Shown here: positions 1-9,216 of the stretch, piece after piece
How the letters are laid out: each line of letters starts with the position of its first letter
Position numbering within the stretch: position 1 is the first letter of the stretch
Source: a virus
Taxonomy: Duplodnaviria; Heunggongvirae; Uroviricota; Caudoviricetes
Direction: 5' to 3' (one strand)
Length of the DNA: 18,223 nt
Virus record (IMG/VR): IMGVR_UViG_3300029875_000034
Location: 1 to 18,223 of that record
Program-made: the position numbers and the translations under genes
The notes under the pieces: model-generated
The model's input: the letters and a program-made list of their open reading frames with translations, nothing else
Database searches by the model: none
What the model was told of the DNA's origin: nothing

Positions 1-69
<69 letters not shown>

Positions 70-72
70 TAT

Positions 73-147
<75 letters not shown>

Positions 148-153
148 GTTAGA

Positions 154-199
154 GTCTTTCAGTCTGCGATGATGGGAAATCCCGGAGTGACTGAAAGAC
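154..199 (+). repeat. Perfect 11-bp inverted repeat (GTCTTTCAGTC / GACTGAAAGAC) around a 24-nt loop, immediately downstream of tRNA-Gly
   Basis: Arms at 154-164 and 189-199 are exact reverse complements; the loop holds a GGG-AAAT-CCC mini-hairpin. No clean U-tract follows. Confidence 0.6.
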
Positions 200-206
200 G
201 TTTAAG

Positions 207-278
207 TTATGAATGATCGCTTTTTTTGCAAAATTGCTGTGCAGAAATACTAACCTTCGGGCAGGCGATCATTCATAA
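207..278 (+). repeat. Perfect 14-bp inverted repeat (TTATGAATGATCGC / GCGATCATTCATAA) separated by a 44-bp T/A-rich spacer
   Basis: Arms at 207-220 and 265-278 are exact reverse complements. Function unknown; could be a protein operator or an RNA stem. Confidence 0.6.
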
Positions 279-353
279 GCACTCTGCTTTTATTCCGATT
301 AACTGTGGGTGGTTTGTTGGATAGAGTGCTTCCCTTACTGTATATATCGTTTC

Positions 354-378
354 GCCCGCTTTTGCGGGTTTTTCTTTT
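354..378 (+). terminator. Intrinsic terminator upstream of the lysis cassette (possible tR'-equivalent late terminator)
   Basis: Stem CCCGC (355-359), loop TTTT, stem GCGGG (364-368), then T-rich tract TTTTTCTTTT (369-378); about 60 nt upstream of the holin start. Confidence 0.6.
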
Positions 379-438
379 CAAATCCCTTTCATTTCTCAGT
401 GTAAAACTACGCCATCCGTTATTTGCGGAGGTGAGGCT

Positions 439-654
439 ATGAAATCCATGGACAAAATTTCAACGGGCATTGCCTACGGCACCTCCGCAGGCAGTGCTGG
501 CTACTGGTTTTTACAGTGGCTTGATCAGGTCAGTCCGTCACAGTGGGCTGCGATTGGTGTACTGGGGAGTCTGGTTCTGGGCTTCCTGACTTATCTGACA
601 AATCTGTACTTCAAAATCAGAGAAGACAAGCGTAAGGCTGCACGGGGAGAGTAA
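439..654 (+). CDS. S: Class II pinholin, phage 21 S-type, with dual-start motif (Met1/Met4, antiholin/holin)
   Basis: 71 aa beginning MKSMDK; two hydrophobic helices ([19 protein letters not shown] and [18 protein letters not shown]) and a charged C-terminus ([13 protein letters not shown]). RBS GGAGGTGA at 427-434. Close to the S21 / DLP12 essD sequence as I recall it. Confidence 0.85.
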
Positions 655-658
655 TTCA

Positions 659-1009
659 ATGACTCAAAACTATGAACTGATTGTGAAAGGGATCCGCAAT
701 TTTGAGAATAAAGTTACGGTAACTTTAGCGTTACGGGACAAAAAACGCTTTGACGGCGAAATTTTTGACCTGGACATCTCGCTGGACCGTGTTGAAGGTG
801 CCGCGCTGGAGTTTTATGAGGCAGCAGCCAGAAGGAGCATCAGACAGGTCTTCCTGGATGTTGCTGCCGGGTTATGTGAAGGGGATGAGCAGTCGCCGGA
901 AAAGCGCCCCGTAATTTTAGAGGCGCAGAATGTGTGGATAACCTACAAAGGAAAGCTACCAGGAAGAATTACTGGTTCTCTGAAGACTCCTCCGGAATCA
1001 CAACCTTAA
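659..1009 (+). CDS. Hypothetical 116-aa protein inserted between holin and endolysin
   Basis: ORF with RBS GGAGAG 7 nt upstream of the ATG and 4 nt after the holin stop. No signal peptide or TM segment. It occupies the same position as ydfR-type (DUF1327) genes in some E. coli prophages, but I cannot confirm homology without a search. Confidence 0.55.
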   Translation: MTQNYELIVKGIRNFENKVTVTLALRDKKRFDGEIFDLDISLDRVEGAALEFYEAAARRSIRQVFLDVAAGLCEGDEQSPEKRPVILEAQNVWITYKGKLPGRITGSLKTPPESQP

Positions 1010-1072
1010 GTCACTGACCGGAACAGATAAACCTGTCCGTGGGCAGAAACCGATAAATCCTGATAAATATCC

Positions 1073-1606
1073 ATGAACGCAAAAATCAGATACGGCCTGT
1101 CGGCTGCCGTTCTGGCACTGATTGCCGTCGGTGCGCCCGCGCCTGATATTCTCGACCAGTTTCTGGATGAAAAAGAAGGTAACCACACAACGGCATACCG
1201 CGATGGTTCCGGCATCTGGACCATCTGTCGGGGTGCCACGATGGTGGATGGAAAACCCGTTTTTCCCGGTATGAAACTGTCGAAGGAAAAATGCGACCAG
1301 GTCAACGCCATTGAGCGTGATAAGGCGCTGGCATGGGTGGAGCGCAATATTAAAGTACCACTGACCGAACCACAAAAAGCGGGTATCGCGTCATTTTGTC
1401 CCTATAACATTGGCCCCGGTAAGTGTTTTCCATCGACGTTTTATAAGCGGCTGAATGCTGGTGATCGTAAGGGCGCATGCGAGGCGATTCGCTGGTGGAT
1501 AAAAGATGGTGGGCGCGATTGCCGCATACGTTCAAATAACTGCTATGGACAGGTTATTCGTCGTGACCAGGAAAGCGCATTAGCCTGTTGGGGAATAGAT
1601 CAGTGA
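1073..1606 (+). CDS. SAR endolysin (GH24 phage lysozyme with N-terminal signal-anchor-release domain)
   Basis: N-terminal Gly/Ala-rich weakly hydrophobic segment [16 protein letters not shown]; catalytic E-x8-D-x5-T triad in [16 protein letters not shown]; size 177 aa. The RBS is weak. Confidence 0.8.
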
Positions 1607-2070
1607 GCAGAGTCGCCGCGATTATTTATGCTCTGGTTATCTGCATCATCGTCTGCCTGTCGTGGGCGGTCAATCATTACCGTGATAACGCCATCACCTA
1701 CAAAGAACAGCGTGATAAAAAAGTCAGTGAGCTGAAGCAGCTGACCGCCACCATCGCTGACATGCAGCAGCGTCAGCGTGATGTTGCTGCGCTCGATGCA
1801 AAGTACTCGAGAGAATTAGCCAATGCGAAAGCTGAAAATGAAACTCTGCGCGCTGATGTTGCCGCTGGTCGTAAGCGCCTGCGGGTCAATGCCAGTTGCT
1901 CCGCAGCCGTGCGTGAAGCCACCGGACCCACCAGCGTGGATAATGCAACCAGCCCCAGACTGGCAGACACCGCTGAACGGGATTATTTCACCCTCAGAGA
2001 ACGGTTGATGACGATGCAGAAGCAACTGGAAGGGGCACAGCTATACATTCGTGAGCAATGTCTCAGATAA
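1603..2070 (+). CDS. Rz: Rz inner-membrane spanin (i-spanin)
   Basis: N-terminal [32 protein letters not shown] and a coiled-coil body, very close to lambda Rz as recalled. Likely start is GTG 1603 overlapping the endolysin stop (GTGA); the ORF track's TTG at 1588 is the alternative. Confidence 0.85.
1823..2008 (+). CDS. Rz1: Rz1 outer-membrane lipoprotein spanin (o-spanin), embedded in the +1 frame of Rz
   Basis: 61 aa with lipobox LVVSAC, proline-rich [32 protein letters not shown]; nearly the same as lambda Rz1 as recalled and fully embedded within Rz. Confidence 0.85.
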
Positions 2071-2124
2071 AAACCGGCCAAGGATAATCCGCTAAAGATT
2101 CGCCGGTGGCGAAAGAGAGCCAAG

Positions 2125-2154
2125 GTGTCAACCTACGCTATTACTTATGATAAT
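2125..2154 (+). promoter_or_regulatory. Candidate sigma70 promoter for the 88-aa ORF (-35 GTGTCA, 18-bp spacer, -10 GATAAT)
   Basis: Hexamers read by eye at 2125-2130 and 2149-2154; not validated. Confidence 0.25.
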
Positions 2155-2225
2155 GCAACAGACGAAGCGGGACATATTGGCGCATAACAAATCAGTGCAG
2201 GCTAACTGCAGGAAGAACTTAGGGC

Positions 2226-2492
2226 GTGAACGTAGAAAACCTAAGTAACGCACATTACATCTATAACGAGATGAAAGAGCTACAGCGACAGAAAGGTATA
2301 CTGGAAAGTGGTGCAGGGCTTGGTGTGACAATCCAGTCTGCCTATCAATATAGTGCTTTTCTTGAGGCCATACGCCCGCATGCAGTTGCTGAACTTAACA
2401 GCCGTATTGAGGAAAAGAAATCCGCGCTGGTTAATTTGGGTGCTTCCTTCTCTATATACGAGCATAATAAGGCGGGTTGGAAACCCGCCTAA
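2226..2492 (+). CDS. Hypothetical 88-aa protein in the AT-rich island (GTG start; alternative ATG at 2270)
   Basis: ORF with AGGAAG 10 nt upstream of GTG 2226. Convergent with the YfbU-like gene; its last codons overlap the shared hairpin. No recognisable family, so coding status is uncertain. Confidence 0.4.
   Translation: MNVENLSNAHYIYNEMKELQRQKGILESGAGLGVTIQSAYQYSAFLEAIRPHAVAELNSRIEEKKSALVNLGASFSIYEHNKAGWKPA
2471..2489. terminator. GC-rich hairpin between the convergent genes (GGCGGGT-TGGAA-ACCCGCC), likely terminator for the minus-strand gene
   Basis: 7-bp perfect stem with 5-nt loop; on the minus strand it is followed by TTATTATG. It sits 9 nt downstream of the minus-strand stop. Confidence 0.5.
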
Positions 2493-2497
2493 AGCAC

Positions 2498-3037
2498 TTA
2501 GAAACTGCGTGGAGCTGTGGAAAGAATGGATGCCAGTTCTTCCTTCGATAAATCCCAGCTTCGATTTACAGCGTCAATTTTCTTAAACTCATCAAGCATT
2601 GCGTTATAGAGATGTTCTGTACGTGAATGAGTATTGGCAATGGGCTGTTTCTGTTCGGGGAAGCGATCAATTTTCTGATATGCCTCAATGATACTGAAGT
2701 AATCGCATTCATTATTACCGTCGAAACCTGGGAGCTGAATTGCCCCATCATGTATTTTTAGATGATGGTCACGGACTAATTCTTTTTGCTCGTCATCACT
2801 AAGTTTCCTGAAAGCATTGGAAAGTCCGCGATACATATTCAAGACAGCAGTAACAAAATCACGATCTTCTTTACTTGGTTCATCAACATCCAAATGTGAA
2901 TATTCGGCCTTCATAACCCAACCATTACCAGATGACACAGCATATTTAACAAGCTGTGGATCAATATCAGTTTCGATACCTAGGTGGATGGCAATGTCAC
3001 ATAACAAAATGGTATTGATTTTATCTTTAATATCCAT
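2498..3037 (-). CDS. YfbU-family (UPF0304)-like protein, accessory (moron) gene on the opposite strand
   Basis: 179 aa. Segments NMYRGL, LPGFDGNNECDYFSIIEAYQ, THSRTEHLYNAMLDEF and C-terminal LSKEELASILS line up with my recollection of E. coli YfbU ([58 protein letters not shown]). Local GC about 35-42% versus about 50-55% in flanking genes, by eye. RBS GAGGG upstream on the minus strand. Confidence 0.55.
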   Translation of the reverse strand: MDIKDKINTILLCDIAIHLGIETDIDPQLVKYAVSSGNGWVMKAEYSHLDVDEPSKEDRDFVTAVLNMYRGLSNAFRKLSDDEQKELVRDHHLKIHDGAIQLPGFDGNNECDYFSIIEAYQKIDRFPEQKQPIANTHSRTEHLYNAMLDEFKKIDAVNRSWDLSKEELASILSTAPRSF

Positions 3038-3175
3038 GAGTTAACCCTCTGAAGTAAAAAGTAATATCTACACCCGTTAGCTCATGAAGTCTATTGATCT
3101 GGCTCATATCAGCGGCAAATCTATTTCATGGAGATACTCAATGCAGGTCACTTTTGATTTATATAAGGGCGAAAC

Positions 3176-3526
3176 ATGCCAGCACTAATCCCACGAGCCT
3201 GCCGTAAACGTGGATGTGCAGGTACAACCACAGACAGTTCTGGTTACTGCGATAAACATCGTGGCGAAGGATGGGTACAGCATCAGCGCGGACTGAGTCG
3301 CCACCAGCGTGGCTATGGCTCGAAATGGGATGCCATACGTGCGCGCATACTGAAGCGTGATAATGATCTGTGTCAGAACTGCCTGCGCAATGGGAGAGCC
3401 GTTGAAGCCAGAACTGTGGACCACATCATTCCGAAAGCTCATGGTGGCTCGGATGCAGACAGTAACCTGCAGAGTCTGTGCTGGCCCTGCCATAAAGCAA
3501 AAACAGCGCGCGAACGCATCAATTGA
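3176..3526 (+). CDS. HNH endonuclease (terminase-associated, HK97-type packaging module)
   Basis: HNH motif DHIIPKAHGG...NLQSLCWPCHKAKT with flanking Cys pairs (CRKRGC, CQNC, CWPCH); positioned immediately upstream of the small terminase. Confidence 0.85.
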   Translation: MPALIPRACRKRGCAGTTTDSSGYCDKHRGEGWVQHQRGLSRHQRGYGSKWDAIRARILKRDNDLCQNCLRNGRAVEARTVDHIIPKAHGGSDADSNLQSLCWPCHKAKTARERIN

Positions 3527-3673
3527 TAACAGTTCCCATCTGTAGGGGAGGGGTGGGTCAAATCCCTGCAGCCCTGGCTGCTCAGTACCGCCGCCTGACC
3601 CTTCCTCACATCGCCGCAGGTTCGAAAACTTTTTTTTGGAATGTGATTAAATGATTGATAGGTAAAACCGATT

Positions 3674-4156
3674 ATGTCAGGACCCCCGAAAACCCCGCCA
3701 CGCCTGCATTTGATACGAGGCAACCCCTCAAAGCGCCCCGTTAAAGACCCCAAAAAAACCGCTAAAAAGGATGAAAAAGGTCTCCCTAAAATTCCGCAAC
3801 ATTTAGGGGCACAGGGGAAGTACTGGTTCAGGCGAATGGCGGAAGAGTTGAATGCGGAAGGGATCATTTCTCAGCTCGATGCACGTGCGCTCGAGTTACT
3901 GGTGGAAGCCTACACCGAATACCGGCATCACTGCGAAATACTCGATGTTGAGGGTTATACCTACCGCACGGAAACGCAGAATGGCGATGTGCTGATCAAG
4001 GCACACCCGGCTGCTGCGATGAAGGCTGATGCCTGGAAGCGGATCCGGGCGATGCTTGCAGAGTTTGGTATGTCGCCGGCAAGCCGGGCGAAAGTAAATA
4101 CCGCCGGACCGGATGATGTTGATCCGCTGGCAGAGCTTTTAAAAGCGAGAGACTGA
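3674..4156 (+). CDS. Terminase small subunit (P27 family)
   Basis: 160 aa with basic N-terminus PPKTPPRLHLIRGNPSKRP and the typical P27-family body; stop overlaps the large-terminase ATG (TGATG). Confidence 0.8.
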   Translation: MSGPPKTPPRLHLIRGNPSKRPVKDPKKTAKKDEKGLPKIPQHLGAQGKYWFRRMAEELNAEGIISQLDARALELLVEAYTEYRHHCEILDVEGYTYRTETQNGDVLIKAHPAAAMKADAWKRIRAMLAEFGMSPASRAKVNTAGPDDVDPLAELLKARD

Positions 4157-5913
4157 TGGCAAAAGTGGCTGACGGGATCCGCTACGCCGAACGCGTTGTT
4201 GCAGGAGAAATTGTTGCTGGCGAATTTGTCCGTCTGGCTTGCCAGCGTTTTCTTGATGATCTGAAGTACGGCGAAGAGCGGGGGATTTATTTCAGTGAAC
4301 CCCGTGCGCAGCACATCCTGAATTTCTACAAATTTGTGCCTCATGTAAAAGGGGCGCTGGCAGGTCAGCCCATTGAACTGATGGACTGGCATGTTTTTAT
4401 CCTCATTAATATTTTTGGTTTTGTCATTCCGCTGGTGAATGAAGAGACCGGGGAAGTTGTCATGCGCAGCGATGGCAGCGGACGCCCGGTGATGGTGCGC
4501 CGTTTCCGGACAGCGTACAACGAAGTCGCCCGTAAAAACGCAAAATCAACCCTGTCATCGGGTATCGGCCTGTATATGACGGGGGCAGATGGTGAAGGCG
4601 GTGCTGAGGTGTATTCAGCCGCAACCACGCGTGACCAGGCCAGAATCGTGTTTGAAGACGCCAAAAATATGGTCAGAAAAGCCCGGTCGACACTCGGGCG
4701 GTTGTTTGATTTCAACAAGCTGGCGATTTACCAGGAGCAGAGCGCATCAAAATTTGAACCGCTTTCCTCGGATGCAAACAACCTGGACGGTCTGAACATC
4801 CACTGCGCCATTATTGATGAGCTGCATGCTCATAAAACCCGTGACGTGTGGGACGTTCTGGAAACGGCAACCGGTGCCCGTCTGCAGTCCCTTTTATTTG
4901 GCATCACCACGGCTGGCTTTAACAAGGAAGGGATTTGTTACGAGCAACGCGATTATGCCATCAAGGTATTGCGAGGCTATAACAGCGACGTGGAGGGCGC
5001 GGTAAAAGACGACTCCTACTTTGCAATTATTTACACGCTCGATGAGGGAGATGATCCGTTTGATGAAACGGTCTGGCAGAAAGCGAATCCCGGCCTGGGC
5101 ATCTGTAAACGCTGGGATGATCTGCGTCGTCTGGCGAAAAAGGCGAAGGAGCAGGTCTCGGCGCGGGTGAATTTTTTCACGAAACACATGAATGTGTGGG
5201 TCACTGCCGAATCTGCCTGGATGGACATGATTAAGTGGGAGAAGTGCGAATACATTGCTCCACAGCATGAGCTGAAAACATATCCCATGTGGGTCGGCGT
5301 CGACCTTGCTCATAAGATTGATATCTGTGCGGCGGCAAAACTCTGGCGAACCGATAACGGACATGTTCATGCCGATTTTAAATTCTGGCTTCCGGAAGGA
5401 CGGCTGGAACGATGCTCGCGGCAGCAGGCAGAACTTTACCGGAAGTGGGCAGAGATGGGAAAGCTCATCCTGACGGATGGTGATGTTATCGATCATGCTC
5501 AGATAAAAAGTGACTTACTGGAATGGATTGGCGGTGAAAACCTGAGGGAACTGGGATTTGACCCGTGGAGCGCAATGCAGTTCAGTCTGGCGCTGGCTGA
5601 AGAAGGGATACCGCTGGTGGAAGTTCCGCAGACGGTCCGCAATCTGTCAGAGGCTATGAAGGAAACGGAATCACTGGTTTATGCCGGACGTTTCCACCAC
5701 AGCAATCATCCGGTCATGAACTGGATGATGTCTAACGTTACGGTAAAACCGGACAAAAACGACAATATCTTCCCGAATAAATCCACGCCTGAAGCCAAAA
5801 TCGACGGCCCTGTTGCGATGTTTACAGCAATGAGCCGCATGCTGGTCAATGGCGGTGAACCGGAGCCGGATCTGTCTGAACATCTGGTCAGCGTGGGTAT
5901 CCGTTCGCTTTAA
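4156..5913 (+). CDS. Terminase large subunit (ATPase + nuclease)
   Basis: 585 aa; Walker-type ATPase region and C-terminal nuclease-like region; located between terS and portal. Confidence 0.9.
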
Positions 5914-5924
5914 CCGAGGGCATT

Positions 5925-6107
5925 ATGTTTCTGATAATTCTCACGCCACTGGTGGGCGTGCTGGGGGCGCTTTTGCTGTCGTATGGCACATGGCTGATTT
6001 ATCCCCCGGCAGGTTTTGTTGTTGCAGGGGCGCTGTGCCTGTTCTGGTCGTGGCTGGTTGCTCGTTATCTCGATCGCGGTCAGCGGGTCGCCTCCGGAGG
6101 TGAGTAA
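5925..6107 (+). CDS. Small hypothetical membrane protein (60 aa, two predicted TM helices)
   Basis: Hydrophobic segments [24 protein letters not shown] and [17 protein letters not shown]; RBS GAGGG at 5915-5919; stop overlaps the portal ATG (TAATG). Confidence 0.45.
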
Positions 6108-7348
6108 TGTTTTTCCAGGGGCTTTTTCAGCGCAAAAATAACACTCCCGTCACAACGCCCGGGATGCTTGCGGAAGAACTGGGATTGTCATACGACACCT
6201 ATACCGGAAAGCGGATCAGCAGTCAGCGGGCCATGCGGCTGACGGCGGTGTATTCCTGCGTCAGAGTGCTGGCGGAGTCTGTTGGTATGCTGCCCTGTAG
6301 CCTCTACAAAATCACCGGCACCCTTAAAACACGGGCGGTGGATGAACGACTGCATAAGCTAATTTCGGCAAAACCCAATGGCTACATGACACCGCAGGAA
6401 TTCTGGGAGCTGGTTATCGTCTGCCTGTGTCTGCGGGGTAATTTTTACGCTTACAAGGTGAAGGCGCTGGGAGAAGTGGTGGAGCTTCTTCCGATAGATC
6501 CGGGTTGTGTGGAGCCGAAGCTGAACTGTCAGTGGCAGCCGGTTTATCAGGTGACGTTTCCGGATGGTTCCGTGGATGTGCTGACCCAGGATGAAATCTG
6601 GCATGTGCGTACTCTGACGCTGGACGGACTGGTCGGGCTGAATCCCATTGCGTATGCGCGTGAGGCCATTTCACTGGCAGCGGCAACTGAGGAGCACGGC
6701 GCCAGGCTGTTTGGTAACGGCGCTGTGACATCCGGTGTGTTGCGTACGGAACAAAAGCTCACGCCGGATGCTTATGAGCGCATGAAGAGGGATTTTGAGG
6801 AGCGTCATCTTGGGCTGGGTAATGCGCACCGTCCGATGATTCTGGAAATGGGGCTGGACTGGAAGCCGGTGGCACTGAATGCCGAGGACAGTCAGTTCCT
6901 GGAAACCCGCAAGTTTCAGTTGGAAGAAATCTGTCGTCTTTTCCGCGTGCCACTGCATATGGTGCAGAACACTGACCGCGCCACCTTCAACAATATTGAA
7001 GAACTGGGGCTTGGCTTCATTAACTATTCCCTTGTGCCGTATCTGACCCGTATTGAACAGCGGATCAATACAGGGCTGGTGAGGGAGAGTAAAAAGGGAA
7101 AATTTTACGCCAAATTTAATGCCGGGGCGTTGTTGCGTGGTGACATGAAATCCCGCTTTGAAGCGTATGCCACGGGGATTAACTGGGGGATTTATTCCCC
7201 TAATGACTGCCGTGATCTGGAAGATATGAACCCTCGCCCGGGCGGTGATGTGTATCTGACACCGATGAACATGACCACCAGTCCCTCTGCTGGCGATGAC
7301 AACGGTAAGAAAAAGGAGAGTGGAGATGCAGACAAAACAGCGTCTTGA
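6107..7348 (+). CDS. Portal protein (HK97 family)
   Basis: 413 aa; RBS GGAGGTGA upstream; typical HK97-family portal length and position after terL. Confidence 0.85.
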   Translation: MFFQGLFQRKNNTPVTTPGMLAEELGLSYDTYTGKRISSQRAMRLTAVYSCVRVLAESVGMLPCSLYKITGTLKTRAVDERLHKLISAKPNGYMTPQEFWELVIVCLCLRGNFYAYKVKALGEVVELLPIDPGCVEPKLNCQWQPVYQVTFPDGSVDVLTQDEIWHVRTLTLDGLVGLNPIAYAREAISLAAATEEHGARLFGNGAVTSGVLRTEQKLTPDAYERMKRDFEERHLGLGNAHRPMILEMGLDWKPVALNAEDSQFLETRKFQLEEICRLFRVPLHMVQNTDRATFNNIEELGLGFINYSLVPYLTRIEQRINTGLVRESKKGKFYAKFNAGALLRGDMKSRFEAYATGINWGIYSPNDCRDLEDMNPRPGGDVYLTPMNMTTSPSAGDDNGKKKESGDADKTAS

Positions 7349-7976
7349 TATACCGCTGAACCTGAAATCCGTCAGTGATTCCGGGGAATTTGAAGGTTAC
7401 GGTTCTGTTTTTGGTGTTAAGGACAGCCACGATGATGTGGTGGTCCCCGGAGCCTTTACCACAACACTCCAGAAATGGAGCGAAAAAAAGGCGCTGCCTG
7501 CGTTGCTCTGGCAGCACCGTATGGATGAGCCTATCGGTGTGTACACCGAAATGAAAGAAGATGATGTCGGGCTTTATGTCAGGGGGCGATTACTCGTTGA
7601 TGATGATCCCCTGGCAAAACGTGCACATGCCCATATGAAGGCCGGTTCTTTAACCGGCCTTTCTATTGGCTACATCCTGAAAGACTGGGAGTACGACCGG
7701 GAAAAAGGGGTATTCCTGCTGAAAGAGATCGACCTGTGGGAGGTCAGTCTGGTGACGTTCCCTTCCAATGATGAGGCACGCATCAGCGATGTGAAAAATG
7801 CGCTGGCGCGTGGGGAGATCCCTGATCAGAAAATTATTGAGCGGGTCCTGCGCGATGTTGGACTTTCGCGAACCCAGGCCAAAGCATTCATGGCCGGGGG
7901 ATATGGCGCTTTATCCCTGCGTGATGCTGAGGATGTGGATGCCGCACTGAATGCACTGAAAAATCTTACTTTTTAA
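7326..7976 (+). CDS. Prohead maturation protease (HK97 gp4 family, S78)
   Basis: Start ATG 7326 preferred (RBS AAGGAGAGTGGAG at 7312-7324) over the ORF-track start 7296 in the same frame; motif GYGSVFGVKDSHDDVVVPGAF; sits between portal and capsid. Confidence 0.8.
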   Translation: MQTKQRLDIPLNLKSVSDSGEFEGYGSVFGVKDSHDDVVVPGAFTTTLQKWSEKKALPALLWQHRMDEPIGVYTEMKEDDVGLYVRGRLLVDDDPLAKRAHAHMKAGSLTGLSIGYILKDWEYDREKGVFLLKEIDLWEVSLVTFPSNDEARISDVKNALARGEIPDQKIIERVLRDVGLSRTQAKAFMAGGYGALSLRDAEDVDAALNALKNLTF

Positions 7977-7989
7977 TCAGGAGTAAATA

Positions 7990-9216
7990 ATGGCTGTTGA
8001 TATTAAAGACGTGGAACAGGTCGCGCAGGATTTGCAGCAGAAGTTTGACGATTTTAAGGCAAAAAACGACAAACGTATCGACGCGATCGAGCAGGAAAAG
8101 GGAAAACTTGCCGGTGAAGTGGAAACTCTCAACGAAAAACTGACTGAGCTGGAAAATCTCAAAAACGATCTTGAGGCTGAACTGGCTGAAGTCAAGCGTC
8201 CGGCAGGTGGCACGCAAAATAAAGTTGCCAGTGAGCATAAAGACGCGTTTATCGGATTTATGCGCAAGGGGCGTGAAGACGGTCTGCGTGAGCTTGAGCG
8301 TAAGGCACTGCAGGTGGGCAATGATGAAGATGGTGGTTATGCCATTCCGGAAGAACTGGATCGCACCATTCTGACGCTGCTGAAAGATGAGGTGGTGATG
8401 CGCCAGGAAGCCACTGTGATCACCCTCGGTGGCTCGGATTATAAAAAACTGGTGAATCTGGGCGGCACTAAGTCCGGATGGGTGGGGGAAACGGATACGC
8501 GTCCGGAAACCGCCACCTCAAAACTGGGGCTGATTGAACCCTTTATGGGGGAAATCTACGGCAACCCGCAGGCTACCCAGAAAATGCTCGATGATGCTTT
8601 TTTCAATGTGGAAGACTGGATCAACAGTGAGCTGGCGCTGGAATTTGCCGAACAGGAAGAAATTGCCTTTACCAGTGGCGACGGCAGCAAAAAACCAAAA
8701 GGGTTCCTTGCTTATGAGTCCACCGATGAAGATGACAAGACCCGTGCGTTTGGCAAACTTCAGCACATCGCTTCCGGCGCGGCTTCCGGCGTGACCGCTG
8801 ATGCGATCATTAAACTGATTTACACCCTGCGCAAGGCGCACCGCAGCGGCGCGAAGTTCATGATGAACAACAGCAGCCTGTTTGCCATTCGTCTGTTGAA
8901 GGATAACGACGGAAATTATCTGTGGCGTCCGGGCATTGAGCTGGGGCAGCCTTCTTCTCTGGCAGGGTATGGCATCGTTGAGAATGAGCAGATGCCGGAT
9001 ATTGCCGCCGATGCAAAAGCCATTGCGTTTGGTAACTTCAAACGCGGCTATACCATCGTTGATCGCATCGGTACCCGTATCCTGCGTGACCCGTACACCA
9101 ACAAACCGTTTGTGGGCTTTTATACCACCAAACGAACTGGCGGTATGCTGGTGGATTCTCAGGCGATTAAGCTGATGAAGATCGGCGCTGCGGTCCGCCA
9201 GAAAGCCGCTGCGTAA
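7990..9216 (+). CDS. Major capsid protein (HK97 fold) with N-terminal coiled-coil delta/scaffold domain
   Basis: 408 aa; N-terminal about 100 residues coiled-coil (QDLQQKFDDFKAKNDKRIDAIEQEKGKLAGEVETLNEKLTELENLKNDLEAELAEV); RBS AGGAG upstream. Confidence 0.85.
   Translation: MAVDIKDVEQVAQDLQQKFDDFKAKNDKRIDAIEQEKGKLAGEVETLNEKLTELENLKNDLEAELAEVKRPAGGTQNKVASEHKDAFIGFMRKGREDGLRELERKALQVGNDEDGGYAIPEELDRTILTLLKDEVVMRQEATVITLGGSDYKKLVNLGGTKSGWVGETDTRPETATSKLGLIEPFMGEIYGNPQATQKMLDDAFFNVEDWINSELALEFAEQEEIAFTSGDGSKKPKGFLAYESTDEDDKTRAFGKLQHIASGAASGVTADAIIKLIYTLRKAHRSGAKFMMNNSSLFAIRLLKDNDGNYLWRPGIELGQPSSLAGYGIVENEQMPDIAADAKAIAFGNFKRGYTIVDRIGTRILRDPYTNKPFVGFYTTKRTGGMLVDSQAIKLMKIGAAVRQKAAA

What the first reader, a model, noticed from the sequence alone, without database searches (positions are those of the whole stretch)
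2071..3175. AT-rich accessory island between Rz/Rz1 and the HNH/terminase genes, carrying a YfbU-family-like gene and a convergent 88-aa ORF
This is the classic moron slot of lambdoid phages (where lambda carries bor). The island is visibly lower in GC than the flanking phage genes. It holds a minus-strand 179-aa YfbU-like (UPF0304) gene with its own upstream region and a terminator hairpin, plus a convergent 88-aa ORF whose 3' end overlaps that hairpin. YfbU-family proteins are poorly characterised, so a prophage-borne copy here is a candidate lysogen-expressed function such as superinfection exclusion, anti-phage defence or a toxin-like module. I do not know of a described defence system built on this family.
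Basis: partly seen in the sequence, partly recalled or inferred. Interest (0 to 1): 0.7.

Follow-up and report, generated by a model that had tools for sequence, protein, structure and literature searches.

The report
Prophage YfbU-family cargo gene
An E. coli prophage carries, between its lysis and DNA-packaging genes, a backwards-facing AT-rich accessory gene of the poorly understood YfbU family; a Lactococcus member of that family (Kamadhenu) was recently shown to block phage infection, so this gene is a plausible but untested phage-defence gene, not a new kind of system.

Summary

Three corrections:
1. The 88-aa ORF is not cargo. It is a conserved 76-aa phage gene (PHROG 5415) that lost its stop codon and now reads into the hairpin.
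2. The variable segment is about 2454-3147. In related phages the same slot is empty or holds at least 14 other AT-rich gene sets. A sibling prophage lacks the whole of 2041-3175.
3. A defence system built on this family is already published: Kamadhenu, a single 180-aa YfbU-fold abortive-infection protein on a Lactococcus plasmid. Phages escape it by mutating their single-strand annealing protein.

YfbU relatives down to 29% identity sit in this lysis/packaging slot, antisense, in 66 of 67 assessable viral contigs, across several unrelated packaging modules. The gene is under strong purifying selection (dN/dS 0.07-0.13).

Best reading: a lysogen-expressed, single-gene, Kamadhenu-like anti-phage moron. 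Function and expression were not tested. I rate it a new member of a known kind, of moderate interest.

The parts
2041..3175 (.). Whole presence/absence block relative to a sibling E. coli prophage. It spans the last ~10 codons of Rz, a spacer, the PHROG 5415 gene, the hairpin, yfbU and the yfbU upstream region.
   Evidence: megablast of the window against NZ_CP098841 (L181): 1-2040 at 98.5%, then homology resumes at 3176. In L181, Rz ends at 2067 and HNH starts at 2110.
2226..2492 (+). The 88-aa ORF, a conserved small phage gene of PHROG 5415. Its ancestral length is 76 aa (2226-2453). Codons 77-88 (2454-2489) are read-through after loss of the stop codon. It flanks the cargo and is not cargo itself.
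   Evidence: PHROG 5415 E=2e-38, matching residues 1-76 of a 76-position profile. There are 276 homologues, mostly 76 aa, in Citrobacter, Salmonella and Klebsiella. The stop-codon change is visible in the DNA alignment. dN/dS is 0.19-0.32. AF2 predicts a helical hairpin at pLDDT 76 with no PDB match.
2454..3147 (.). The variable cargo segment proper, the part that other gene sets replace in related phages. GC over 2454-3175 is 0.395.
   Evidence: blastn breakpoints against 16 loci that carry the PHROG 5415 gene but no YfbU: left homology ends at window 2418-2453 and right homology resumes at 3148-3176 or later. The GC is the lowest of 701 windows of that size.
2470..2490 (.). GC-rich hairpin between the convergent genes (AGGCGGGTT-GGA-AACCCGCCT). 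It is a likely bidirectional terminator and sits 7 nt after the yfbU stop codon.
   Evidence: RNA folds on both strands, z about -2.9. A compensatory T-A to G-C stem change is seen in Klebsiella and other copies. It has a weak U-tract and was not called by the consensus scan.
2498..3037 (-). yfbU-like gene, 179 aa. It is a Pfam PF03887 member of a phage-borne clade carrying the motifs LLCDI, W40, MY, PGFDGNNE, (N)TH and Y144.
3038..3175 (-). yfbU upstream region. It holds the RBS GAGGG (3045-3049, 7 nt before the ATG) and a weak candidate sigma-70 promoter, TAGACT (3088-3093), 19 nt, GATATT (3063-3068).
   Evidence: Read from the sequence. Custom promoter scan and comparison of upstream regions. 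The elements are conserved within the close clade. The stricter tool scan found no site on this strand. This is a candidate only.
3176..3526 (+). HNH endonuclease gene, the conserved right-hand anchor of the slot. P27-type TerS (3674-4156) and TerL (4156-5913) follow.
   Evidence: Pfam HNH E=2.3e-16, Terminase_4 E=1.9e-25. RefSeq annotation.

Best explanation
The segment is a moron: a self-contained, horizontally exchanged cargo gene parked in the hypervariable slot between the end of the late lysis region and the HNH/terminase packaging genes of an HK97-like lambdoid E. coli prophage. The cargo is one gene, a 179-aa YfbU-fold protein. It is transcribed against the late operon, probably from its own weak promoter, and ends at a hairpin shared with the convergent upstream gene. 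I infer that the lysogen expresses it and that it acts as a single-protein anti-phage (abortive-infection or superinfection-exclusion) factor of the Kamadhenu type. On that model it is idle in the uninfected cell, is triggered by an incoming phage's recombination machinery (for Kamadhenu, a Sak-like single-strand annealing protein), and then blocks a late step of infection at the cost of the infected cell.

Shown here: family and fold membership, slot position, orientation, compositional foreignness, presence/absence polymorphism, purifying selection, and solitary (single-gene) distribution.

Inferred: expression in the lysogen, the defence function, the trigger and the effector step.

For: Same architecture as Kamadhenu: a single gene, 179 against 180 aa, on a mobile element.

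Cargo behaviour: the block is absent from a 98.5%-identical sibling prophage. The slot after the PHROG 5415 gene runs from 243 bp (empty) to 3.5 kb and holds at least 14 different gene sets at GC 0.33-0.50. GC of 0.395 is the window's minimum. The island is in 224 of 5426 complete E. coli genomes.

Recurrent position and orientation: YfbU relatives at 29-99% identity are antisense and lie between the lysis and packaging genes in 66 of 67 assessable IMG/VR loci. Pfam-annotated contigs show the same with four different packaging modules: P27 TerS+HNH, lambda GpA/DUF1441, Terminase_6/Terminase_2 and Terminase_4.

Real, selected gene: dN/dS is 0.07-0.13, with invariant GFD..N..H..Y motifs across both phage clades.

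Own signals: an RBS, a conserved upstream region and a hairpin with a compensatory stem change.

Precedent for function: Kamadhenu gives resistance with an Abi phenotype, does not affect phage DNA replication, transcription or translation, and escape mutants map to Sak-like SSAP G22. Chromosomal yfbU is required for cell death after DNA damage (PMC2646832).
Against: There is no expression or phenotype data for this gene.

PADLOC-DB 2023 has no model that matches it. That library predates Kamadhenu, so this is weak evidence.

I could not compare the protein directly with the Kamadhenu sequence, which I could not retrieve. The two may be no closer than common Pfam membership. Identity to E. coli YfbU is only 17%, and to an Enterococcus plasmid YfbU 24.6% at a non-significant tblastn E-value of 1.

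The promoter match is weak and was not found by the stricter scan, and the terminator has a poor U-tract.

No other cargo in the same slot matches a known defence family, so the slot is not demonstrably a defence hotspot.

One locus (L096) has the gene co-oriented with HNH/TerL.

The Kamadhenu result came from constitutive expression from a high-copy vector, and how the fold produces an Abi phenotype is unknown.
Confidence: 0.45

Rival explanations
1. Lysogenic-conversion factor acting on host physiology rather than on phages. On this view the prophage YfbU paralogue plugs into or interferes with the host pathway in which chromosomal YfbU acts, namely death after DNA damage downstream of MazF. 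For example, it could co-assemble with the host YfbU oligomer and so tune host survival or the outcome of SOS-driven prophage induction.
For: Chromosomal yfbU is a 'death gene' needed for killing after DNA damage, and MazF increases its synthesis (PMC2646832). The fold is the same, and YfbU crystallises as a large assembly of 16 chains per entry, so mixed oligomers are conceivable. The moron features (antisense, own signals) fit any lysogen-expressed function equally well.
Against: Identity to host YfbU is only 17%. The NCBIfam YfbU equivalog scores 35.5 bits against a cut-off of 90. The phage/plasmid-type His137 aligns to Gln in E. coli YfbU, which makes co-assembly less likely. The only tested mobile-element YfbU protein has an anti-phage phenotype.
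Confidence: 0.2
2. A phage lytic-cycle accessory, for example a counter-defence factor or a modulator of late events such as packaging or lysis timing. It would serve the phage during its own replication rather than in the lysogen.
For: The gene sits at the junction of the lysis and packaging modules and travels with the HNH/terminase block between E. coli and Klebsiella at about 93% DNA identity while the lysis genes differ. Phage-borne genes in variable slots are often anti-defence genes (general knowledge).
Against: It is antisense to the late operon in 66 of 67 loci, so late read-through transcription would oppose its expression rather than drive it. A near-identical sibling prophage lacks it, and it is split by IS5 in some copies. 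Only 3 isolated phages among 50,697 phage records carry it, whereas it is common in prophages.
Confidence: 0.12
3. A two-gene module, toxin-antitoxin-like or sensor-effector, formed by the convergent 88-aa ORF and the YfbU-like gene.
For: The two genes are adjacent, converge on one hairpin, and are found together in E. coli and Klebsiella prophages. Both are absent from the sibling prophage.
Against: Their distributions are independent. Only 32 of 80 loci with the small gene have YfbU, and none of the 44 YfbU loci at 82% identity or less has the small gene. They are convergent and so not an operon. The overlap with the hairpin comes from a lineage-specific stop-codon loss. Kamadhenu works as a single gene.
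Confidence: 0.04

Closest known systems
Kamadhenu antiphage system (Lactococcus plasmid gene pUCCL624_130; Grafakou et al. 2024, PMC11381338; Mosterd et al. 2025, PMC12184496)
   Different: Host and vehicle differ: a Gram-positive conjugative-type plasmid against a Gram-negative lambdoid prophage. Phenotype, trigger (Sak-like SSAP) and Abi behaviour are shown only for Kamadhenu.
Chromosomal E. coli YfbU (UPF0304; PDB 1WPB, 4LR3)
   Same: The same two-domain all-helical fold (154 residues aligned, rmsd 3.4 A). GFD, E110 and Y144 are conserved in the profile alignment.
   Different: 17% identity. It fails the NCBIfam equivalog cut-off (35.5 against 90 bits). The N-terminal ~37 residues fall outside the Pfam match. 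The phage/plasmid clade has GFDGNNE and an invariant His137 where E. coli YfbU has GFDAATE and Gln. It is accessory, AT-rich and prophage-borne rather than a core chromosomal gene.
Lambda bor-type morons (genes expressed from the prophage, located between Rz/Rz1 and the packaging genes)
   Same: Same genomic slot, opposite orientation to the late operon, own upstream region and terminator-like hairpin, deviant base composition, and presence/absence among relatives.
   Different: The protein is unrelated: bor is a lipoprotein that confers serum resistance (from my own knowledge). Here the slot has conserved anchors, the PHROG 5415 gene on the left and HNH on the right.
Prophage and satellite hotspots of antiviral systems (P2/P4; Rousset et al. 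2022, PMC9122126)
   Same: A fixed position bounded by conserved genes in which many alternative, mostly AT-rich cargo sets replace one another.
   Different: The phage group (HK97-like/lambdoid) and the anchors differ. None of the cargoes sampled here matches a known defence family, so the defence character of this slot is unproven.

Membership tests
Pfam PF03887 YfbU / UPF0304 | Whole-protein HMM score above Pfam's gathering threshold | tested here: met
   48.4 bits against a cut-off of 25, E=1.4e-12, residues 38-172 on profile positions 38-164 of 166. A profile of the clade hits the 1wpb/4lr3 sequences at E=1.2e-7.
Pfam PF03887 YfbU / UPF0304 | YfbU fold (two-domain helical protein as in PDB 1WPB/4LR3) | tested here: met
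Chromosomal YfbU orthologue (NCBIfam NF003936 equivalog) | Score above the curated equivalog cut-off | tested here: not met
   35.5 bits against a cut-off of 90. It is a family member but not the orthologue of E. coli yfbU.
Kamadhenu antiphage system | Single-gene system encoding a ~180-aa PF03887 / YfbU-fold protein on a mobile element | tested here: met
   179 aa, PF03887, prophage-borne. The neighbours vary, so it stands alone.
Kamadhenu antiphage system | Direct sequence homology to pUCCL624_130 | not testable with these tools
   The paper has no supplement held as text. No Lactococcus protein is among the listed hits. The paper names a Klebsiella pneumoniae protein as a top HMMER hit of Kamadhenu, which is only a hint.
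Kamadhenu antiphage system | Confers phage resistance with an abortive-infection phenotype; escape through SSAP mutations | not testable with these tools
   Needs plaque and liquid-infection assays and selection of escape mutants.
Prophage moron (lambda bor type) | Located between functional modules, in opposite orientation to the late operon | tested here: met
   It lies between Rz/Rz1 plus the PHROG 5415 gene and HNH/TerS/TerL, on the minus strand. The same holds in 66 of 67 related loci.
Prophage moron (lambda bor type) | Own promoter and terminator | tested here: inconclusive
   A hairpin is present and covaries but has a weak U-tract. There is an RBS and a weak TAGACT-19-GATATT candidate conserved in close relatives. 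The stricter consensus scan finds nothing on this strand.
Prophage moron (lambda bor type) | Deviant composition and presence/absence among close relatives | tested here: met
   GC 0.395, the lowest of 701 windows, and GC3 0.33. Absent from a 98.5%-identical sibling prophage. Replaced by other cargo in related phages.
Prophage moron (lambda bor type) | Expressed from the repressed prophage | not testable with these tools
   Needs a lysogen transcriptome or proteome.
Type II toxin-antitoxin pair (88-aa ORF + YfbU) | Obligate co-occurrence and co-transcription of the two genes | tested here: not met
   YfbU is present in only 32 of 80 loci with the small gene. The small gene is absent from all 44 YfbU loci at 82% identity or less. 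The genes are convergent.

The most novel reading that the evidence does not exclude
The slot bounded by the PHROG 5415 gene and the HNH/terminase genes (and more generally the lysis/packaging junction of lambdoid enterobacterial prophages) may be an unmined hotspot of single-gene abortive-infection factors. On this reading the phage-borne YfbU clade (GFDGNNE...H...Y) is a widespread sensor-effector that detects foreign phage recombination proteins, and chromosomal YfbU, the 'death gene', is a domesticated relative. That would give the YfbU fold its first mechanism in a tractable E. coli system with a solved paralogue structure.
Probability: 0.2. Interest if true: 0.7.

Novelty: new member of a known kind. 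Interest (0 to 1): 0.42.

Why it matters
Structures of YfbU have been in the PDB since 2004, but the family still has no biochemical function. Its only phenotypes are a role in cell death after DNA damage in E. coli and, since 2024, abortive-infection defence by Kamadhenu in Lactococcus.

If the prophage copy is also a defence gene, three things follow. The YfbU fold would be established as a cross-phylum anti-phage module. It could be studied in E. coli, with standard phage panels, genetics and a solved paralogue. And it would draw attention to a well-delimited cargo slot holding at least 14 other uncharacterised gene sets.

If it is not a defence gene, the finding remains an ordinary, already-annotated prophage moron.

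Tried and rejected
- **Retrieving the Kamadhenu sequence for a direct comparison failed.** The paper has no supplement held as text. tblastn of the window protein and of an Enterococcus plasmid YfbU against PLSDB listed no Lactococcus record. A profile search of 5.8 billion proteins showed none among the 120 listed hits. The GTDB scan found none.
- **PADLOC-DB gave no match** for either protein. This says little, because the library dates from 2023, before Kamadhenu.
- **The toxin-antitoxin or two-gene reading was rejected** on distribution.
- **Remote homology for the 88-aa protein led nowhere.** There is no Pfam, NCBIfam or PDB sequence hit. AF2 gives a helical hairpin, and the best Foldseek PDB match is E=1.3. 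Its function remains unknown.
- **The consensus promoter/terminator scan** found nothing convincing for yfbU. My looser scan gives only a weak candidate.
- **Rfam** finds only the two tRNAs at the start of the window.
- **Pfam and PADLOC scans of ten alternative cargo proteins** from the same slot gave no secure family.
- Counts without names or genomic context would not have changed the verdict.

Full report
**What is in the sequence**

The window is the late region of an HK97-like lambdoid E. coli prophage. The segment 2071-3175 is 100% identical to E. coli W46 (NZ_CP163115) and 99.5% identical to the E. coli phage vB_EcoS-689R5.

The gene order is:
- tRNA-Thr (partial) and tRNA-Gly
- class II holin, 439-654
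- DUF1327/YdfR, 659-1009
- lysozyme, 1073-1606
- Rz, 1588-2070, with embedded Rz1, 1823-2008
- the 88-aa ORF, 2226-2492 (+)
- the 179-aa ORF, 2498-3037 (-)
- HNH endonuclease, 3176-3526
- P27-type small terminase, 3674-4156
- large terminase, 4156-5913
- then portal, protease, capsid and tail genes

**The 179-aa protein is a YfbU-family protein but not the chromosomal YfbU**

- It scores 48.4 bits on Pfam PF03887 against a cut-off of 25.
- It scores only 35.5 bits on the NCBIfam YfbU equivalog, whose cut-off is 90.
- It matches PHROG 6084, of unknown function, end to end at E=4e-82.
- An AlphaFold2 model built on 28 homologues has mean pLDDT 88.

RefSeq already names the gene 'YfbU family protein', so the family assignment is correct but not new.

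**The compositional shift and the island bounds are real**

- GC falls to 0.395 over 2454-3175. That is the lowest of 701 windows of this size in the 18-kb window (mean 0.514, sd 0.028).
- GC3 of the gene is 0.33, against 0.51-0.57 in the lysozyme, Rz and TerL genes.
- A prophage in E. coli CUVET18-1475 is 98.5% identical over window 1-2040. There Rz runs into HNH after about 70 bp, and homology resumes exactly at 3176.

The island covers at least 80% of its length in 224 of 5426 complete E. coli genomes, always on the chromosome.

**The 88-aa ORF is a conserved phage gene, not cargo**

- It matches PHROG 5415 over residues 1-76 of a 76-position profile.
- It has 276 homologues, nearly all 76 aa long, in Citrobacter, Salmonella, Klebsiella and E. 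coli prophages.
- DNA alignment with the Klebsiella and other copies shows the ancestral stop codon (TCT TAA TGC) changed to TCT ATA TAC in the E. coli lineage. The frame now runs 12 codons further, through the hairpin, to the next stop.
- dN/dS against six relatives is 0.19-0.32, so it is a real gene.
- Its model is a helical hairpin at pLDDT 76 with no significant PDB match. Its function stays unknown.

**The small gene marks the left edge of a hypervariable slot**

- Among 80 IMG/VR contigs that carry the small gene, only 32 also carry YfbU.
- The distance from its end to the HNH start ranges from 243 bp (empty) to 3.5 kb.
- The slot holds at least 14 different gene sets, with GC from 0.33 to 0.50. 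Most are single genes of unknown function and several are antisense.
- blastn places the left breakpoint at window 2418-2453. The right breakpoint is at 3148-3176 in nine of the 16 loci compared; in the other seven detectable homology resumes only inside the HNH gene.

The cargo proper is therefore about 2454-3147: the hairpin, yfbU and its upstream region. None of ten alternative cargo proteins has a secure Pfam or PADLOC family. By eye, three of them carry Rx4H (HEPN-like) motifs.

**The YfbU gene returns to this position again and again**

- Of 78 IMG/VR loci encoding relatives at 29-99% identity, 67 have flanking genes recognisable by similarity to the window's proteins.
- In 66 of those 67, the YfbU gene lies between the lysis genes and the HNH/terminase genes and is antisense to them. 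The one exception is L096.
- Pfam-annotated contigs for homologues at 54-62% identity show the same arrangement next to unrelated packaging modules: lambda GpA/DUF1441, Terminase_6/Terminase_2 and Terminase_4. Other accessory genes sit beside them, including KilA-N, GlgS and a Ser/Thr kinase with a PP2C phosphatase.
- Relatives at 82% identity or less never have the PHROG 5415 gene beside them. The gene is therefore a solitary unit.
- It is under strong purifying selection: dN/dS is 0.07-0.13 in the three comparisons with unsaturated synonymous sites.
- Across the 179-aa clade and a second ~183-aa phage clade, these residues are invariant: K6, L12, G104-F105-D106, N108, H137 and L172. W40, N109, E110 and Y144 are nearly so.
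- GFD, E110 and Y144 also align to E. coli YfbU, whereas His137 aligns to Gln there.
- Only three isolated phages among 50,697 phage records encode a relative. The gene is mainly a prophage feature.

**Expression signals**

- The hairpin at 2470-2490 has a 9-bp stem and a 3-nt loop. It lies 7 nt past the yfbU stop and folds on both strands.
- It shows a compensatory T-A to G-C exchange in other copies.
- Its U-tract is poor, and the consensus scan did not call it.
- Upstream of yfbU there is a good RBS (GAGGG, 7 nt from the ATG) and a weak promoter candidate, TAGACT-19-GATATT. The candidate is conserved among close relatives.

Expression from the repressed prophage is therefore inferred from orientation and layout. 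It is not shown.

**What is known about the family**

- Chromosomal yfbU is required for E. coli death after DNA damage, downstream of MazF. No biochemical role is known (PMC2646832).
- Phages escape Kamadhenu through a mutation at G22 of a Sak-like single-strand annealing protein (PMC12184496).
- Kamadhenu does not affect phage DNA replication, transcription or translation (PMC13064643).
- In the searchable library, 'YfbU' appears in 30 papers and 'Kamadhenu' together with 'phage' in 4. None of the abstracts or passages I read concerns an E. coli or prophage-borne YfbU defence gene.

**Interpretation**

The best-supported reading is a lysogen-expressed, single-gene moron that protects the lysogen against other phages in the manner of Kamadhenu.

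- The moron part is well supported.
- The defence part rests on one precedent in a distant host and on the general tendency of such slots to hold exclusion genes.
- The trigger and effector steps are pure analogy.

Three rivals remain:
- a conversion factor acting on the host's own YfbU/MazF death pathway;
- a lytic-cycle or counter-defence accessory, disfavoured by the antisense orientation, its dispensability and the IS5-disrupted copies;
- a two-gene module with the 88-aa ORF, rejected on distribution.

I could not obtain the Kamadhenu sequence, so membership of that specific system is untested beyond shared family, fold, size and single-gene architecture.

**Verdict**

This is a new, prophage-borne, Gram-negative member of a known kind: a YfbU-family accessory gene, with Kamadhenu as precedent. 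Interest is moderate. The value lies in a tractable E. coli entry point to the function of the YfbU fold and in a cleanly delimited cargo slot worth surveying, not in a new type of system.

Noticed in passing
L126-L178 (IMG/VR loci), region between the PHROG 5415 gene (ends ~5228) and HNH; equivalent to window 2454-3175: The slot holds at least 14 alternative cargo sets, from 243 bp (empty) to 3.5 kb, at GC 0.33-0.50. Most are unknown single genes. Three cargo proteins (187, 204 and 226 aa) carry Rx4H motifs (LRNAFLH, MRNDLAH, ARNSAHH) that suggest HEPN-like RNases. One of them has a weak PADLOC CARF_HEPN hit at E=0.004.
   Followed up: partly
window 16630-17649 (+): An IS110-family transposase (Pfam Transposase_20 and DEDD_Tnp_IS110) sits between the minor tail protein L gene and the C40 peptidase (tail K) gene. 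It is also present in E. coli CUVET18-1475. It may be polar on the distal tail genes and so impair the prophage.
   Followed up: partly
L131 4316-6055 (same contig as L067): In this copy an IS5-family transposase (326 aa) splits the yfbU gene after about residue 87. This probably also explains the truncated 143-156-aa database variants (P0029, P0033, P0034, P0038). The gene is dispensable, or there may be selection to inactivate it.
   Followed up: partly
window 2454-2492: Loss of the stop codon in the PHROG 5415 gene (TAA -> ATA) in the E. coli lineage adds 12 residues (IYEHNKAGWKPA), part of which the terminator hairpin itself encodes.
   Followed up: yes
L072-L098 (IMG/VR), e.g. L072 459-1007: A second phage-borne YfbU clade of about 183 aa (MKYTQ.EKLQ..LC.I ... 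FPGFDGNNE ... NSH ... YRRML), 29-39% identical to the window protein, occupies the same antisense lysis/packaging slot in other enterobacterial phages.
   Followed up: partly
L180 (E. faecium Aus0085 plasmid p3) 3998-5035; At least 146 Enterococcus plasmids carry a YfbU-family gene (172 aa). It aligns to the window protein at 24.6% identity but at a non-significant tblastn E-value of 1. A co-oriented 170-aa gene with no Pfam family follows immediately, among IS elements and near a Fic gene. This may be a two-gene variant.
   Followed up: no
L012 7990-9488; L017 603-2680; L021 1303-2526; L004 15645-16540: Other accessory slots in the same prophage families hold defence-like genes. A Ser/Thr kinase with a PP2C phosphatase lies next to the YfbU homologue. 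HicAB, RelA_SpoT with NA37, and an nSTAND1 NTPase lie between the Q antiterminator and the holin. An AAA_15/AAA_21 ATPase lies further upstream.
   Followed up: no
window 1-147: tRNA-Thr (5'-truncated by the window edge) and tRNA-Gly(UCC) lie just upstream of the lysis cassette. In the full prophage they belong to a four-tRNA cluster (Ile, Lys, Thr, Gly) downstream of the antiterminator gene.
   Followed up: yes
L181 2038-2109 versus window 2041-3175: The sibling prophage that lacks the island also diverges across HNH to the capsid gene (88% identity over 3176-9182, against 96-98% elsewhere). The island may therefore have arrived together with a different packaging/head module by recombination, not by a simple insertion.
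   Followed up: no
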